DNA from: Promethearchaeati archaeon
GTDB lineage: Archaea; Asgardarchaeota; Heimdallarchaeia; Heimdallarchaeales; Heimdallarchaeaceae
Length of the DNA: 58,267 bases
Direction: 5' to 3'
Assembly (NCBI GenBank): GCA_013166775.1
Contig: JABLTJ010000021.1
Span: 1-58,267 of the forward strand
Positions 17,287 to 28,526 of the stretch are shown here, piece after piece; the first letter of the stretch is position 1, and every line of letters begins with the position of its first letter. The notes below the pieces were generated by a model. The model saw only the letters and a program-made list of their open reading frames with translations. It did no database searches and was not told where the DNA came from. The position numbers and the translations under genes were made by a program.

Positions 17287-18045
17287 ATGAGTTCCTTTCT
17301 AAAAAAAATAAAAGAGCTTTTCATATCAAAAGAAAAAATATTCAATAATCTGTTAATCGAAGAATTGGAAAACAAGGATTTCATTAACATAAGAAAACTA
17401 TCTTCAAAACTATCTGTTCAACAACGATATAAAATCACAAATAAACTAATATCAAATGGTAGTATAAGTGGAATTCTTTTACCTGAAACAACGTTTTTTT
17501 TCTCAATACAAAACAAAGAATTAACAGAAATTAAGGATCAGCTTAAAAGAAAAGGAAGCATAGATTCATCTTCTCTGAAAGAGAAATGGGGGGTTAAGAA
17601 CAAGTATCTAGAATTACTATTGATGCATTTTGAGAAGGGTATTCTAACACCCAAAACCTATTACACTATCAGATATCTTCATGAGCATATCTTATCTACA
17701 CTAAATAAAGAGGAAGAGTATGAAATCAAGCTGTTCAATGAAAAATTAAATGCTGACCTAGATGATATAATCAAGATTATACTAGATTTAATAGAAGAAG
17801 GATTACTCCTTGGTGTTTTGCAGAATGATGAAATATTTCTAAGCGCAACAAAATTTGAGGACCTAATTACTGAATATGCTGAAGAGAAATACAATCTAGC
17901 TGATGAGGTTGAATTCAATGAAATCTCTATCGATTTAAAAGTTTCACAAGATTCTATAGAGAAGTTTTTGGTTAATATTGTGGAAAAAATGCCTGGAATA
18001 TATGCTGTATATCCCTTAGAAAAAAAGATAAAATTCAAGAAATAA
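17287..18045 (+). CDS. Tandem winged-helix (PCI/UFL1/DDRGK-like) protein
   Basis: About four repeated WH-like units, e.g. KLISNGSISGIL and DLIEEGLLLGVL. Confidence 0.55.
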   Translation: MSSFLKKIKELFISKEKIFNNLLIEELENKDFINIRKLSSKLSVQQRYKITNKLISNGSISGILLPETTFFFSIQNKELTEIKDQLKRKGSIDSSSLKEKWGVKNKYLELLLMHFEKGILTPKTYYTIRYLHEHILSTLNKEEEYEIKLFNEKLNADLDDIIKIILDLIEEGLLLGVLQNDEIFLSATKFEDLITEYAEEKYNLADEVEFNEISIDLKVSQDSIEKFLVNIVEKMPGIYAVYPLEKKIKFKK

Positions 18046-18165
18046 GGCTAAATATGCAAAAATGAGAAGTTGCATATATAATCGACTAGAAATTTAATGT
18101 ATCTATCTATCTGTCATAGTGCGAAATCTTTAAAATGGTTTGTTTTATTCGAACGATAGATTAAA

Positions 18166-18603
18166 ATGGTTAAGAAGTTACCTTGGGTTTTTCCTGGTAT
18201 TAGGAGACCTAATTTCAGTTTGCATCAAATCTCCATTAGAATACCTACAAGAATTCCTCGAAGCGTTCTCTATATTGTAATCTTTGGTATAATCTTCTAC
18301 ATTTTTAGTGGAGGAGCTTATGATATTGTAAATCAAGAAAATCTTGTCAGTATTGGACAAAGAGGAAACGCTCCGCTCTTCCTTGCACCAAGTCTGCACG
18401 CACAATATTTAATCGAGGGCCTTGTAGCTGGTTTTGTATTCGCTTTTGCAGCATTGAGCCTATATCTTTTTGATCATGCTACAAAGTATGCGTTTGATGT
18501 TAGTACAGCTCAAAAGATTGAATTAATTGCAACCGTCTTAATTGTCATATGGTACATAGCAATTCTTCTTTTATATAATGCAAAAATGCCTGCTAGGGTT
18601 TAG
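18166..18603 (+). CDS. Oligosaccharyltransferase subunit OSTC/DC2-like (OST3/OST6 family TM domain)
   Basis: 145 aa, three TM segments; GGAYDIV, FLA...QYLIEGL and C-terminal KMP parallel OSTC GGIIYDVI, FLA..QYIMEGL and KLP (recalled from memory). Confidence 0.85.
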   Translation: MVKKLPWVFPGIRRPNFSLHQISIRIPTRIPRSVLYIVIFGIIFYIFSGGAYDIVNQENLVSIGQRGNAPLFLAPSLHAQYLIEGLVAGFVFAFAALSLYLFDHATKYAFDVSTAQKIELIATVLIVIWYIAILLLYNAKMPARV

Positions 18604-18606
18604 TAA

Positions 18607-25344: not shown

Positions 25345-25496
25345 AAGGTCCGATTTTACGAATTATATATCTAAGAAAATAATATATTTGATCCTTTAAA
25401 CATCACTTAACATAATTTGCGAATGATTAATTCGGTGAAATCACATTTTAGTCGAAAAGCTTATTAATGAAGATAAAGCTGCTTCACCCGATTACA

Positions 25497-25607
25497 ATGG
25501 ATTTCAATATCATATCTACCTTATCGATAATTGCTTTATTAATCGCTGTGATTTTTGGTTTGTTCTATCACGCATTTAGTGTTGGTAAGGAAGAAAAAGA
25601 AACATAA
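25497..25607 (+). CDS. 36-aa single-TM microprotein, OST4-like (not in the ORF track)
   Basis: MDFNIISTLSIIALLIAVIFGLFYHAFSVGKEEKET; BRE/TATA-like CGAAAAGCTTATTAA at 25453-25467; YH motif at the TM end, then a charged tail. Confidence 0.75.
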   Translation: MDFNIISTLSIIALLIAVIFGLFYHAFSVGKEEKET

Positions 25608-25610
25608 TAA

Positions 25611-28526
25611 CTATATCTCCAGAATCATTCCCTTCTTCTTATTATAGATTTTAATAACTGTTGTTATTGCACCTGCAAGAACCCCTGAACTTGAAACCAG
25701 TGGTATTACTAAATTGGTTATATTGTTCACTCCTGATACCTTTGTTCCTACCAAATCTAAAATTAGATAACTTCCTTTTGTTATATTTATGTTCGAATAG
25801 TAAACATAGATGTCATTAACTTGAAGGTCATAATTTTCGGAAACTTCTTGGGATCCACTTGAAAACAGTTTCCATTGGTATTTAGATGAAGTAAAACTAC
25901 CATTTAGATAATAAATTAAAGAGATATCGGAAAAACTCTTTGTTTGAGAACCAATTATGAAATGACACGTTATTTGATCTTTTTCTTCGTCTAGCGATAC
26001 TTGTACTTCTGGTCCAAGAGTCATAATAATCAGCTTGTGATTAATAGTATCTTCACCTACTTGTATTCCCCAGTAGATGATACCCGATCCAATATGTACA
26101 GGAATATGTGAAGAATCTGTTTGAATATAAGCATCCAGCATTGGAAACATCTCTTCATTGGTAAAAGCATACCATTTATCATGTGAATTCATGTAAAGAA
26201 CATCATAAGTAATTGTGATATTTGGAGAAATAAATACATCATTATCATTTCTAGAAATTTCCGCTTGCAGGTGTTCAAATACTATTTCAAATGTTTCCGA
26301 GGCAACTATGGTATAGAATTTTATTATTGAACAAGTTATACTAATAACTTGAGATGTAGAAGGCAAATTTACTTCACAAATATATCTCCCACCCATATCC
26401 AAAATCCCTGTTAAGGATAGATTTGCATTGCTTTCAATCATTACTGGGGCAAAGCCGACTGGATTAGAATCTGATAAGACATTAAAAGAGAGCATGTAAT
26501 AGGTTGGTATCGTTAATTTTTCATATACAAATTCTATTTCTATTTCACTTTCATACACATGAACATCCACTGTGTGGATTACAGATGAGTGAGTCGTTGA
26601 GCTAGCCCAGACTTCAAGCAAGTAATCTCCACAAGATAAATAATATGAAGAAACCAGAAGTTGAAATTGATTTCCGTTTTTTATTGCGTTTATACTTTCA
26701 TTATTTAGATATGCAATAACGCTTCCTTCCTCAATCTCAATTCCTGAAATAAGAGATTCGTAGCTAGTATTAACTATTATTAGTGCATATTGTGGTATCA
26801 CAATCTGATTTGCAATTTGTAATTGAGCTGGTAATCTTTCCAAAAGAAATGTTGCATTGGTATAACCATATCCGTTGTGATCAATTATTACAAAAATAAC
26901 ATCTAAACTGCCATTAAGTATCCAGGGAGGAATGGTGAAAATCAAGGCTTCGTTCTCAAAAATGATGGATGTTCCTCCATCTTCATCAGAAAACCATAGA
27001 ATATTAATTATGTTATTCGTATATTCATAGTTGAAACTAAAAGTTGCATCTATAGTTTCAAAAATTGTTAATGAAGAAAAATCTACGCTTTCGATTAAAT
27101 TAGGTATTGCAAATTCGCAATAGAGAAGTTCACTTTGATTTGTATTATTCAACGATAAAAGGTTATATTCCCCATCTAAGCTTTCATTGGCTAGAATATC
27201 AAAACTCTCAATTTCACCTATCAGAGACCAAAAAGCTGGATAAGTTATGTTTATGATACTAGTAAACATACTCAAATTAGTTTTCGTAATTGTATAAGTA
27301 GTAATCTCGTTTATGGAAGTATGATTTTCCGTTAATATTTCAACTGTACCTGAAATTAAAACTGTATAATTGGCATTAATAACATAACTAGAATTATGAC
27401 TCCAATAGATTGTATATTCAAAAGAAGATGCACCCTCTCCAATCTCAACATATAAATTAAAACTTCCTGAATTTGAATTTGTTGAGGTTATAGCAATTCC
27501 ATTCGTTTTTAAATCCATATAATCTGCCGATACAGAAGTTCGTATCTCAAAATTATCTATCAACAGAGAACATTCTGAAAATTCAGGTGATATCACATAT
27601 ATTCCTACAGATTTTATTGTAGTAGGGATGTAAGGATCGTTTTCAGTAAACAACTCAGATAACTCTAGAGAGTAATTGTGCCATTCATTGTTCCAACTAT
27701 TGTTCTTCAACAATCTATATACAATGAATGGTGAGGTTGTGTTTTCTCCAATTAAAGGAGGATCAATGTTAGTGTAATGCCAATGAATTACCATTATTCT
27801 ACAAGTATCAAAAACTAGATCAAAAATAAGAGATGAATTTACTACGTTCTGAATACTTGAATTCGCTTCTAGCAAGTAATTATAGCTGATTCTTGTATCG
27901 GTGTCATATAAATCAACATCTTGTTGATATAAAGCATAACTTATCGATTCAGTATTGCTAGAGAAGAATTTCCAGACATACGATCCTTCAAAACTTCTGC
28001 TTTCTTCCACTCTTTCTAAACTTAATCCTGCATTTATGGCATCTGCAGAATAAAATCCAACTTCATTTTCAGCGCCAGAATTCTGAACGTATTGTGATTC
28101 AATTTCAGAAACATTTCCTTCAAAACTATACTGACCTTGACTTGGTAATGAGATAGTTAAATTTCCGTTATTAATTTCTTTACTCACTTCATTTTTAGAA
28201 TATATAGTCGAAACATTAACGTTAGGCTGAAATTCATCAAGAACACCGTCGAGAGTTTTGTTATAATCTGTTTCTGACTCTTCTAGATTTATTTTGTCAT
28301 AATATTCTTCTTCTCCTTCTAGTTCTAAATTGGGTTGGTTTTCTTCAGCACTCTCTACTGCATTCATAAAATTTGCATTGATGTCTGAATCAGGTTCTAC
28401 TATATTGTTTGCTTGATTACCATTTTGTTCACTATTTAACAGATTTTTTCCCTCTATAAATGGAGTAAACAACAATACAACTAGATACAATATGATAGCA
28501 AATGCTAGAAAATGTTTTCTCTTCAT
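25611..28526 (-). CDS. Large secreted, C-terminally membrane-anchored cell-surface (glyco)protein, 971 aa
   Basis: Signal peptide MKRKHFLAFAII; acidic Ser/Thr/Asn-rich beta region with many N-x-S/T sequons; C-terminal TM and KKK. Confidence 0.8.
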   Translation of the reverse strand: MKRKHFLAFAIILYLVVLLFTPFIEGKNLLNSEQNGNQANNIVEPDSDINANFMNAVESAEENQPNLELEGEEEYYDKINLEESETDYNKTLDGVLDEFQPNVNVSTIYSKNEVSKEINNGNLTISLPSQGQYSFEGNVSEIESQYVQNSGAENEVGFYSADAINAGLSLERVEESRSFEGSYVWKFFSSNTESISYALYQQDVDLYDTDTRISYNYLLEANSSIQNVVNSSLIFDLVFDTCRIMVIHWHYTNIDPPLIGENTTSPFIVYRLLKNNSWNNEWHNYSLELSELFTENDPYIPTTIKSVGIYVISPEFSECSLLIDNFEIRTSVSADYMDLKTNGIAITSTNSNSGSFNLYVEIGEGASSFEYTIYWSHNSSYVINANYTVLISGTVEILTENHTSINEITTYTITKTNLSMFTSIINITYPAFWSLIGEIESFDILANESLDGEYNLLSLNNTNQSELLYCEFAIPNLIESVDFSSLTIFETIDATFSFNYEYTNNIINILWFSDEDGGTSIIFENEALIFTIPPWILNGSLDVIFVIIDHNGYGYTNATFLLERLPAQLQIANQIVIPQYALIIVNTSYESLISGIEIEEGSVIAYLNNESINAIKNGNQFQLLVSSYYLSCGDYLLEVWASSTTHSSVIHTVDVHVYESEIEIEFVYEKLTIPTYYMLSFNVLSDSNPVGFAPVMIESNANLSLTGILDMGGRYICEVNLPSTSQVISITCSIIKFYTIVASETFEIVFEHLQAEISRNDNDVFISPNITITYDVLYMNSHDKWYAFTNEEMFPMLDAYIQTDSSHIPVHIGSGIIYWGIQVGEDTINHKLIIMTLGPEVQVSLDEEKDQITCHFIIGSQTKSFSDISLIYYLNGSFTSSKYQWKLFSSGSQEVSENYDLQVNDIYVYYSNINITKGSYLILDLVGTKVSGVNNITNLVIPLVSSSGVLAGAITTVIKIYNKKKGMILEI

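What the first reader, a model, noticed from the sequence alone, without database searches (positions are those of the whole stretch)
17287..28526. Dispersed neighbourhood of candidate eukaryote-type OST/translocon accessory subunits
Within ~8 kb lie an OSTC/DC2 homolog (strong), an OST4-like microprotein (good), a TMEM258-like protein (weak), a GIFT type I membrane protein (weak) and a UFL1/DDRGK-like WH protein (weak), followed by a sequon-rich surface protein. They are not one operon, and no AglB/STT3 is in the window. Inference: this organism may build a multi-subunit OST closer to the eukaryotic STT3A complex than standard annotation shows.
Basis: inference. Interest (0 to 1): 0.72.

Follow-up and report, generated by a model that had tools for sequence, protein, structure and literature searches.

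The report
Heimdall-archaeon OST subunit gene neighbourhood
An 8 kb stretch of a Heimdall-group Asgard archaeon holds separate genes for archaeal versions of three helper subunits of the eukaryotic protein-glycosylating machine (OSTC/DC2, a 36-residue Ost4-like peptide, a Wbp1/OST48-like protein) and a UFL1/DDRGK1-like protein, but such homologues are already published and the clustering is only a family-level gene-order remnant.

Summary
- **OSTC/DC2 candidate (145 aa, 3 TM):** confirmed. It passes the Pfam OST3_OST6 cut-off, and its best solved relative is human OSTC.
- **"GIFT" protein (371 aa):** a signal-peptide, GIFT-domain, C-terminal-TM protein. Its fold ties with IFT52 and Wbp1/OST48. 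It fits the divergent WBP1 homologue reported by Eme et al. 2023.
- **"OST4-like" ORF:** really starts at 25497 and is 36 aa. It is conserved across the whole order (34-38 aa, D-F...Y-H). A co-fold places it between TM1 and TM13 of this genome's STT3, where yeast Ost4 sits (score 0.74, controls 0.00). Sequence tests are weak.
- **Winged-helix protein (252 aa):** a four-WH protein collinear with the human DDRGK1-UFL1 chimera by profile, Foldseek and VIA.
- **"TMEM258-like" protein (74 aa):** failed every test.
- **971-aa neighbour:** sequon-rich, in the top 1.5% of ORFs.
- **Elsewhere in the genome:** STT3 and ribophorin I lie on other contigs.

The genes are interleaved with unrelated housekeeping genes on both strands. 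Their proximity holds in five Heimdallarchaeaceae genera but not in three sister families. Multi-subunit Asgard OST (Eme 2023) and Asgard UFL1/DDRGK1 (Picchianti 2023) are already published. This is therefore new members of a known kind. The scan had already noted the OSTC and WH genes separately on this window.

The parts
17287..18045 (+). 252-aa cytosolic protein of four tandem winged-helix domains, UFL1/DDRGK1-like. It has no TM segment.
   Evidence: Profile A4 against the PDB: DDRGK1-UFL1 chimera 8b9x E 1.9e-6, DDRGK1 8c0d_B E 8e-4. AF2 model pLDDT 90 with 4 WH domains. Foldseek top hit 8b9x at 4e-9, then UFL1 8ohd_A at 4.5e-7. VIA Z 13.1 over 238 residues against at most 9.7 for single-WH hits. 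Remote profile hits carry Pfam DDRGK plus E3_UFM1_ligase above cut-off, and two of them are Helarchaeota. Pfam on the protein itself gives only sub-threshold PCI/FeoC hits.
18166..18603 (+). 145-aa, 3-TM OSTC/DC2-type member of the OST3/OST6 family, without a thioredoxin domain.
   Evidence: Pfam PF04756: 35 bits against a 27-bit cut-off, matching the C-terminal TM part 180-288 of 294. The only PDB hits are human/mammalian OSTC: 6s7o_H (149 aa) E 5.9e-5 and 6ftg_3 E 2.4e-4. Present in 38 of 41 related genomes across 4 families. A TATA-like TTTAAAA lies about 35 nt upstream, read directly from the sequence.
19384..19608 (-). It is a real gene, but no link to OST was found.
   Evidence: Conserved as a 74-77 aa ORF in genera g1 and g10 at 28-40% identity. 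No Pfam, PDB or atlas link. hhalign against verified human TMEM258 gives P 0.25 over 3 columns.
20768..21883 (+). 371-aa type I membrane protein: signal-like N-terminal helix, extracellular GIFT domain, C-terminal TM and a short basic tail. It is the divergent Wbp1/OST48-like protein of Heimdallarchaeia.
   Evidence: Weak Pfam OST48_N, IFT52_GIFT and ABC_transp_aux hits. Some family members carry precomputed PF03345. Profile against the PDB hits the IFT52 GIFT domain at 4.4e-5. AF2 model pLDDT 71. Foldseek top hit is yeast Wbp1 6ezn_G at 4e-8. VIA Z: IFT52 20.7/20.3, Wbp1/OST48 17.4-18.8, generic GATase1-like at most 14.8. Present in 38 of 41 relatives. It has 9 sequons, the 97.6th percentile.
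25497..25607 (+). 36-aa single-TM microprotein, Ost4-like. The true start is the internal ATG of the 46-codon ORF 25467-25607.
   Evidence: The conserved start M-D-F and invariant F-Y-H-A-F-S-x-G-K-E are seen in 20 genomes of the genus. 34-38 aa homologues with D-F...Y-H occur in all four families of the order. Co-fold with STT3 residues 1-520: ipSAE 0.75/0.74/0.00, median 0.74, best control 0.00. The interface covers STT3 29-55 (TM1), 157-169, 438-449 and 470-493 (TM13). Yeast Ost4 sits between TMH1 and TMH13 of Stt3 (PMC7226087). hhalign of the order-wide profile against verified human OST4 gives P 0.004 with Y-H in register. There is no Pfam Ost4 hit.
25611..28526 (-). 971-aa sequon-rich type I surface protein, a probable OST substrate. 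It is convergent with the Ost4-like gene.
   Evidence: Signal-like N-terminus and C-terminal TM plus KKK tail, read from the sequence. 26 sequons against 15.6 +/- 3.5 in shuffles, 98.6th percentile. No Pfam family. Its homologue stays next to the Ost4-like gene in genera g10 and g12.

Best explanation
The window belongs to a Heimdallarchaeaceae genome. Its catalytic STT3/AglB (contig C35) most likely works with eukaryote-type accessory subunits.

Three of these subunits are encoded here as separate, individually transcribed genes:
- a Trx-less 3-TM OSTC/DC2-type Ost3-family protein;
- a 36-aa Ost4-like helix that wedges between STT3 TM1 and TM13 and would stabilise the catalytic subunit;
- a GIFT-domain type I membrane protein that is the divergent Wbp1/OST48 homologue.

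With ribophorin I (contig C54), these would form a multi-subunit OST in the cell membrane. It would glycosylate sequon-rich surface proteins such as the 971-aa neighbour.

The adjacent four-WH protein is a short member of the Asgard DDRGK1/UFL1-like tandem-WH family. UFM1 and UFC1 are reported to be eukaryote-only, so it would act as a UFM1-independent scaffold.

The 74-aa protein is an unrelated small membrane protein.

The co-location is a loose, family-level remnant of gene order, not an operon or a dedicated locus.

Shown here: the homologies and folds, the predicted docking, and the synteny pattern. Inferred: actual assembly, activity and the substrate.
For: - OSTC.
- Ost4-like: conserved 34-38 aa family across the order with D-F...Y-H. 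The co-fold scored 0.74 against a best control of 0.00. That mark was reached by 58 of 80 solved complexes and 2 of 110 mismatched pairs. The runs agree in at least 8% of their contacts, and the partner's pLDDT is at least 49. The predicted site matches the published Ost4 site. hhalign gives P 0.004.
- WBP1-like: and Eme 2023.
- WH protein: and Picchianti 2023.
- STT3 and ribophorin I are present in the genome.
- Sequon enrichment.
- Synteny: all four genes lie within 8-45 kb in genera g1, g10, g12 and g13. OSTC and GIFT are on different contigs, or 152 kb apart, in 16 genomes of three other families. None of the profiles A1-A4 hit within 1.5 kb either side of OSTC in the eight of those loci that were checked.
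Against: - No Pfam Ost4 or PDB OST4 hit for the 36-aa family by HMMER.
- One of three co-fold runs scored 0.00. The decoy partners were not shown to be TM helices. A pass can also reflect the model's memory of solved OST complexes.
- The GIFT domain is as close to IFT52 as to Wbp1/OST48. The window protein is far below the OST48_N cut-off (12.9 against 36 bits). It also appears to lack OST48's second lumenal domain.
- DAD1, Ost5 and Ost4 Pfam models find nothing in this 89%-complete genome.
- No experiment shows that any archaeal AglB has partners.
Confidence: 0.6

Rival explanations
1. Only the OSTC-type protein is a true OST component. The 36-aa peptide is a generic small membrane protein whose Y-H motif and predicted docking are coincidental. 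The GIFT protein is an unrelated extracellular GIFT/GATase1-like protein. The proximity is chance within a conserved block of housekeeping genes.
For: HMMER and Pfam see no Ost4 signal, and random TM families score as well. The atlas gives nothing. One co-fold run scored 0.00. The GIFT profile hits IFT52, not OST48, in the PDB, and Z is higher for IFT52. The neighbours are RPA, NadE, RadA-like and KaiC-like genes, and the rearrangements in g12 and g13 follow block moves of those genes. There is no linkage in other families.
Against: The control co-folds scored 0.00, and the docking site equals the published Ost4 site. Length, start and D-F...Y-H are conserved across four families. Even human and yeast Ost4 reach only E 0.067 against each other, so a HMMER miss says little. 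The type I topology of the GIFT protein matches OST48, not cytosolic IFT52, and some family members pass as PF03345. The chance of 3 of 5 genes falling within 7.4 kb is about 1e-4.
Confidence: 0.25
2. The neighbourhood is a functional 'translocon accessory' module. The UFL1/DDRGK1-like WH protein is co-expressed with OSTC and, like the eukaryotic UFL1-DDRGK1 complex, acts on ribosomes docked at the Sec translocon where an OSTC-containing OST sits. This would be an ancestral link that predates UFM1.
For: WH and OSTC are co-directional and 120-215 nt apart in genera g1 and g10. The WH protein is collinear with the minimal DDRGK1-UFL1 E3 chimera. The review PMC7226087 describes DC2 as mediating the OST-translocon contact. 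All four genes stay within 45 kb in five genera despite rearrangements.
Against: OSTC has its own TATA-like box in the 120-nt gap. In g12 and g13, WH and OSTC are 6-11 kb apart, and WH stays instead with its divergent KaiC-like neighbour. This WH family was not found outside Heimdallarchaeaceae with the profile, whereas OSTC is order-wide. No WH homologue lies beside OSTC in eight loci of other families. Binding was not tested.
Confidence: 0.1

Closest known systems
Human OSTC/DC2 (PDB 6s7o chain H), OST3/OST6 family PF04756
   Same: Similar length (145 against 149 aa), three TM helices and no thioredoxin domain. It is the best and only PDB sequence match and lies above the Pfam cut-off.
   Different: Roughly 25-30% identity over about 80 residues, judged from the alignment. 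It is archaeal and so sits in the cell membrane. Contact with STT3 or SecY was not tested. Asgard 'OST3/6' proteins have been reported since 2017, so the family assignment is not new.
Eukaryotic Ost4/OST4 (yeast 1rkl, human 2lat; Pfam PF10215)
   Same: 36-37 aa, one TM helix, an acidic residue near the N-terminus, Y-H at the cytosolic end of the helix at the same position to within one residue, and a polar tail. It is predicted to sit between STT3 TM1 and TM13, as yeast Ost4 does.
   Different: No significant HMMER or Pfam match. hhalign gives only P 0.004 over 15 columns. The tail is acidic (GKEEE) rather than basic or polar.
Wbp1/OST48 (6ezn chain G, 6s7o chain G) and the divergent WBP1 homologues of Heimdallarchaeia (Eme et al. 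2023)
   Same: Signal peptide, GIFT-fold ectodomain, single C-terminal TM and a short basic tail. Foldseek top hit, Z 17.4-18.8 over about 220 residues. Family members carry PF03345.
   Different: About 60-80 residues shorter, with only one ordered lumenal domain and a disordered insert at 181-223. It is structurally just as close to the cytosolic IFT52 GIFT domain (Z 20.7). Partners Ost2 and Swp1 were not found here with Pfam.
Human DDRGK1-UFL1 chimera (8b9x) and Asgard DDRGK/UFL1-like tandem-WH proteins (Picchianti et al. 2023)
   Same: Collinear array of WH/PCI-like domains over the whole 252 aa. Supported by profile, Foldseek and VIA. Remote relatives in Helarchaeota carry DDRGK followed by E3_UFM1_ligase in one chain.
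   Different: No TM anchor and no UFL1 C-terminal region. The protein itself is below the Pfam cut-offs. UFM1 and UFC1 are reported as eukaryote-only, so an E3 function is unlikely.

Membership tests
OSTC/DC2 (OST3_OST6, PF04756) | Match to the family model above the curated cut-off | tested here: met
   35 bits against a 27-bit cut-off, C-terminal TM region of the model. 32.1 bits in the genome scan.
OSTC/DC2 (OST3_OST6, PF04756) | Short form without the thioredoxin domain, about 150 aa, three TM helices; nearest solved relative is OSTC | tested here: met
   145 aa with three hydrophobic stretches, read from the sequence. The only PDB hits are OSTC chains at E 5.9e-5 and 2.4e-4.
OSTC/DC2 (OST3_OST6, PF04756) | Binds STT3 and contacts the Sec61/SecY channel | not tested
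Ost4 (PF10215) | 36-37 aa single-pass membrane peptide | tested here: met
   36 aa from the conserved ATG at 25497. Homologues of 34-38 aa occur in four families.
Ost4 (PF10215) | Sequence match to the Ost4 model or to solved OST4 chains | tested here: inconclusive
   No hit at E up to 10. hhalign against verified human OST4 gives P 0.098 with the genus profile and 0.004 with the order profile, with Y-H in register. Human against yeast Ost4 itself reaches only E 0.067.
Ost4 (PF10215) | Sits between TMH1 and TMH13 of STT3 | tested here: met
   This is an in-silico result only. ipSAE was 0.75/0.74/0.00 (median 0.74) against a best control of 0.00. The mark was reached by 58 of 80 solved complexes and 2 of 110 mismatched pairs. 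Run agreement is at least 8% and partner pLDDT at least 49. The interface covers STT3 29-55 and 470-493. The published site is in PMC7226087. The pass may reflect likeness to solved complexes.
Ost5/TMEM258 (PF05251) | Sequence match to the family model or to solved TMEM258 | tested here: not met
   No hit for the 74-aa protein. hhalign against verified human TMEM258 gives P 0.25 over 3 columns. The family-wide search finds only Heimdallarchaeaceae relatives without a Pfam domain.
Ost5/TMEM258 (PF05251) | Two TM helices packing against the ribophorin I/Ost1 TM helix | not tested
   The two-TM hairpin is evident from the sequence.
Wbp1/OST48 (PF03345) | GIFT-fold lumenal/extracellular N-terminal domain | tested here: met
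   VIA Z 17.4-18.8 to Wbp1/OST48 over about 220 residues, tied with IFT52 at 20.3-20.7. Foldseek top hit 6ezn_G.
Wbp1/OST48 (PF03345) | Type I topology: signal peptide, C-terminal TM, short cytosolic tail | tested here: met
   Helices 3-22 and 335-363 in the model, followed by a basic tail.
Wbp1/OST48 (PF03345) | Match to OST48_N above the curated cut-off | tested here: not met
   12.9 bits against a 36-bit cut-off for the window protein. Four more distant family members carry a precomputed PF03345 hit. The assignment therefore rests on fold, topology and Eme 2023.
UFL1/DDRGK1 tandem-WH family (PF09743, PF09756) | Array of WH/PCI-like domains collinear with DDRGK1 C-terminus plus UFL1 N-terminus | tested here: met
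   There is also a transitive link to proteins that carry both Pfam domains above cut-off.
UFL1/DDRGK1 tandem-WH family (PF09743, PF09756) | Direct match to the Pfam models above cut-off | tested here: not met
   No DDRGK or E3_UFM1_ligase hit for this protein.
UFL1/DDRGK1 tandem-WH family (PF09743, PF09756) | Works with UFM1 and UFC1 | not tested
   Picchianti 2023 reports UFM1 and UFC1 only in eukaryotes. They were not searched for here.

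The most novel reading that the evidence does not exclude
Heimdallarchaeaceae assemble a eukaryote-like OST 'subcomplex II' (STT3 + 36-aa Ost4 + Trx-less OSTC) together with a Wbp1-like subunit. The unsplit DDRGK1-UFL1-like WH protein encoded beside OSTC is a translocon- or ribosome-associated scaffold. On this reading, both the OST-A-type translocon coupling and the core of the UFL1/DDRGK1 machinery predate eukaryotes and UFM1, and eukaryotic DDRGK1 and UFL1 arose by fission of one archaeal tandem-WH gene.
Probability: 0.12. Interest if true: 0.75.

Novelty: new member of a known kind. Interest (0 to 1): 0.4.

Why it matters
It gives concrete coordinates and sequences for Asgard OST accessory subunits that the literature mostly reports as presence/absence tables. 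One of them is a 36-aa Ost4-like gene; all family members found in the protein collection came from JGI or ENA gene calls, none from NCBI. It also gives a testable prediction that this peptide docks between TM1 and TM13 of the archaeal STT3. This makes reconstitution of an archaeal multi-subunit OST practical. In addition, it shows that gene order offers little help for finding the missing subunits, because the linkage is confined to one family.

Tried and rejected
- **TMEM258/Ost5 identity of the 74-aa protein: rejected.** The following gave nothing: Pfam, PDB single sequence and profile (the RecA hits there are an artefact of summed 3-bit repeats), profile search of 5.8 billion proteins, atlas, and hhalign against verified TMEM258 (108).
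- **Ost4 by HMMER, Pfam or atlas:** no signal. I kept this as 'inconclusive' because true Ost4 orthologues barely match each other.
The 46-codon ORF was used instead.
- **DAD1/Ost2:** the Pfam scan of the genome gave only frames with stops.
- **WH next to Ost4-like in genus g13 as independent evidence of coupling: rejected.** The gene map shows that the OSTC-to-wHTH block simply moved away.
- **Sigma-70 promoter scan:** uninformative for an archaeon (37 found against 43.7 expected).
- **PMC6112861** (yeast OST structure paper) is not held. The review PMC7226087 was used instead.
- **A combined regions-plus-files call** to the fetch from genomes failed.

Full report
**Context.** The window is contig C52 of a 3.85 Mb, 89%-complete genome. 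Close protein relatives are named Candidatus Heimdallarchaeaceae, Heimdallarchaeota AB_125 and Heimdallarchaeum endolithica. GC content is about 31% outside the rRNA genes.

**Gene map of 17.2-28.6 kb.**
- WH protein, 17287-18045 (+)
- OSTC-like, 18166-18603 (+)
- RadA/Rad51-like, 18607-19245 (-)
- 74-aa 2-TM protein, 19384-19608 (-)
- NAD synthase, 19699-20490 (-)
- GIFT protein, 20768-21883 (+)
- wHTH protein, 21887-23206 (+)
- RPA-like OB-fold protein, 23224-25344 (+)
- Micro-ORF, 25467/25497-25607 (+)
- 971-aa surface protein, 25611-28526 (-)

This is not an operon of OST genes. The candidates are interleaved with replication, repair and cofactor genes on both strands.

**OSTC/DC2.** The 145-aa protein passes the Pfam OST3_OST6 gathering score (35 against 27 bits) over the C-terminal TM part of the model. 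Its only PDB matches are mammalian OSTC chains: 6s7o_H, 149 aa, E 5.9e-5. It has three hydrophobic helices and no thioredoxin domain. It is present in 38 of 41 genomes across four families of the order. The claim is confirmed. An Asgard 'OST3/6' protein is long known.

**Ost4-like peptide.**
- *Gene start.* Comparison of 20 genus relatives shows that the conserved start is the internal ATG at 25497. The product is 36 aa, with invariant M1, D2, F20, L22-S28 (L-F-Y-H-A-F-S) and G-K-E.
- *Upstream sequence.* The conserved 'coding-looking' stretch upstream ends in a TTATTAA box about 30 nt before that ATG. I read this as a promoter; that is an inference.
- *Distribution.* A profile search finds one copy per genome in 29 of 30 Heimdallarchaeaceae and gives weak hits in other families. 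When fetched, those hits are 34-38 aa ORFs with the same M-x-D/N-F start and L-x-Y-H-[FY] end. The peptide is therefore an order-wide family.
- *Sequence tests.* HMMER-based tests do not connect it to Ost4. However, verified human OST4 hits yeast Ost4 only at E 0.067, so such tests have little power here. hhalign of the order-wide profile against human OST4 aligns the Y-H region in register with P 0.004, compared with 0.098 for the genus-only profile.
- *Co-fold.* The peptide was co-folded with residues 1-520 of this genome's STT3 (alignments A1 and A6). The scores were 0.75, 0.74 and 0.00 (median 0.74), against a best control of 0.00. That mark was reached by 58 of 80 solved complexes and 2 of 110 mismatched pairs. 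The runs agree in at least 8% of contacts, and the partner's pLDDT is at least 49. The confident interface is STT3 29-55 (TM1) and 470-493 (the last TM before the WWDYG domain), plus 157-169 and 438-449.
- *Comparison with yeast.* The review PMC7226087 states that yeast Ost4 is 'nestled between TMH1 and TMH13 of Stt3'.
- *Caveats.* The pass may reflect the model's memory of solved OSTs. That would show likeness, which is the question asked, but not real binding. The decoys were not shown to be TM helices.
- *Estimate.* I put Ost4 homology or analogy at about 0.6.

**GIFT/WBP1-like protein.**
- Pfam gives only sub-threshold OST48_N, IFT52_GIFT and ABC_transp_aux hits.
- The family is Heimdall-wide, and four more distant members carry precomputed PF03345.
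- The family profile hits the IFT52 GIFT domain in the PDB at 4.4e-5.
- The AF2 model (pLDDT 71) has an N-terminal helix, one α/β domain, a disordered insert at 181-223 and a C-terminal TM helix at 335-363.
- Foldseek ranks yeast Wbp1 first at 4e-8, with IFT52 and human OST48 within a factor of ten.
- VIA gives IFT52 Z 20.7/20.3 and Wbp1/OST48 Z 17.4-18.8, well above generic GATase1-like folds at 14.8 or less.
- Only OST48/Wbp1 shares the type I membrane topology.
[quoted passage not shown] 2023.
- It is present in 38 of 41 relatives.
- Gene callers start the protein at M19 (353 aa), which would remove the signal-like helix.

**WH protein.**
- The genus profile hits the engineered human DDRGK1-UFL1 chimera 8b9x (E 1.9e-6) and DDRGK1 chains (8e-4 to 5e-3).
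- AF2 gives four tandem WH domains at pLDDT 90.
- Foldseek ranks 8b9x first (4e-9), then ribosome-bound UFL1 (about 5e-7), then SelB (1e-4).
- VIA gives Z 13.1 over 238 of 256 residues of 8b9x, against 9.7 or less for single-WH matches.
- A full HMMER search of 1.84 billion representatives finds 56 proteins. Eight of the ten remote hits scanned carry Pfam DDRGK followed by E3_UFM1_ligase and PCI above cut-off in a single chain. Two of the four looked up are Helarchaeota.
- The protein is therefore a short member of the Asgard UFL1/DDRGK1-like family that Picchianti et al. 2023 already traced to Asgard archaea.
- This particular 252-aa form was found only in Heimdallarchaeaceae.

**74-aa protein.** It is a conserved 2-TM gene in genera g1 and g10. 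Every test for TMEM258/Ost5 was negative.

**Surface protein.** It has 26 sequons (2.68 per 100 aa), z = 3.0 against shuffles, and lies at the 98.6th percentile of 2373 ORFs. It is a plausible substrate and nothing more.

**Rest of the genome.** There is one STT3 (755 aa, WWDYG present) on C35 and one ribophorin I on C54. Pfam DAD1, Ost4 and Ost5 models find nothing credible.

**Is the clustering meaningful?**
- *Within genus g1.* All five genes are collinear in 21-23 of 24 genomes.
- *Other genera of the family.* The four validated genes remain within 9 kb (g10, G042), 45 kb (g10, G041, with a 39-kb insertion), 22 kb (g12) and 21 kb (g13, two complete genomes).
- *Gene maps.* The whole region, including the RPA, KaiC-like, FIST, NadE and RadA-like genes, is one syntenic block that has been cut and pasted. 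The WH/Ost4-like adjacency in g13 arises because the OSTC-to-wHTH segment moved away.
- *Other families of the order.* In 16 genomes of three other families, OSTC and the GIFT gene lie on different contigs, or 152 kb apart in a 10-contig assembly. None of the four profiles hits within 1.5 kb of OSTC in eight such loci.
- *Chance.* The nominal probability of 3 of 5 OST genes falling within 7.4 kb is about 1e-4. This is one historical event in one family.
- *Conclusion.* I read it as a loose remnant or coincidence. It is not a functional island (probability of a functional module about 0.1).

**Novelty.** A multi-subunit Asgard OST and Asgard UFL1/DDRGK1 are both published. What is added here:
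- exact genes;
- a corrected start and an order-wide definition of the Ost4-like peptide, with a docking prediction;
- rejection of the TMEM258 candidate;
- a negative result on conserved clustering.

Earlier notes of this scan had already flagged the OSTC and WH genes on this window and the ribophorin I gene on another contig.

Noticed in passing
window 99-1611 (-) and 4985-8366 (+): Complete archaeal 16S and 23S rRNA genes lie divergently, about 3.4 kb apart, so they are unlinked. The 23S match spans 3382 nt for a 2987-position model, which suggests an insertion or intron. They explain the GC peaks.
   Followed up: partly
window 20768-25344 (+): The GIFT/WBP1-like gene, a 439-aa double-wHTH protein (MCM_WH_arc/HTH_24 hits) and an RPA-like OB-fold protein are spaced by only 3 and 17 nt. 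They keep this order in genera g10 and g12. This is an odd, possibly co-transcribed trio of a surface protein with replication proteins.
   Followed up: partly
G034:C248:38007-46157 (other family of the order): The WBP1-like gene and STT3 lie on the same strand, about 5 kb apart. This is the only STT3 linkage seen among the 16 genomes of the three other families. The sister genome G039 has them on different short contigs.
   Followed up: no
window 25440-25496: The sequence just upstream of the Ost4-like ATG is conserved across the genus. It reads as 'SKSLL' in the spurious ORF extension and ends in TTATTAA about 30 nt before the start. It looks like a BRE/TATA promoter of a leaderless mRNA.
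   Followed up: partly
window 25497-25607: The 36-aa gene family appears in the protein collection only from JGI and ENA gene calls, never from NCBI records.
   Followed up: partly
L065 = G000:C79:32830-33090 (+): A 302-aa ORF on another contig gives a sub-threshold Pfam DDRGK hit (E 0.003, 18 bits). It may be a second DDRGK/UFL1-like WH protein in this genome.
   Followed up: no
window 14526-17161 (-): A FIST-domain protein, a 119-aa protein without a Pfam family, and a KaiC-like ATPase form a tight block divergent from the WH gene. WH keeps this divergent partner in genus g13. In g12 the same block follows WH on the same strand.
   Followed up: no
window 28840-29871 (+): A 343-aa protein with an N-terminal CxxC...CxxC zinc-ribbon-like start and no Pfam hit at E 0.001 or better. 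It is 60% identical in genus g12. It may be a divergent TFB-like factor.
   Followed up: no
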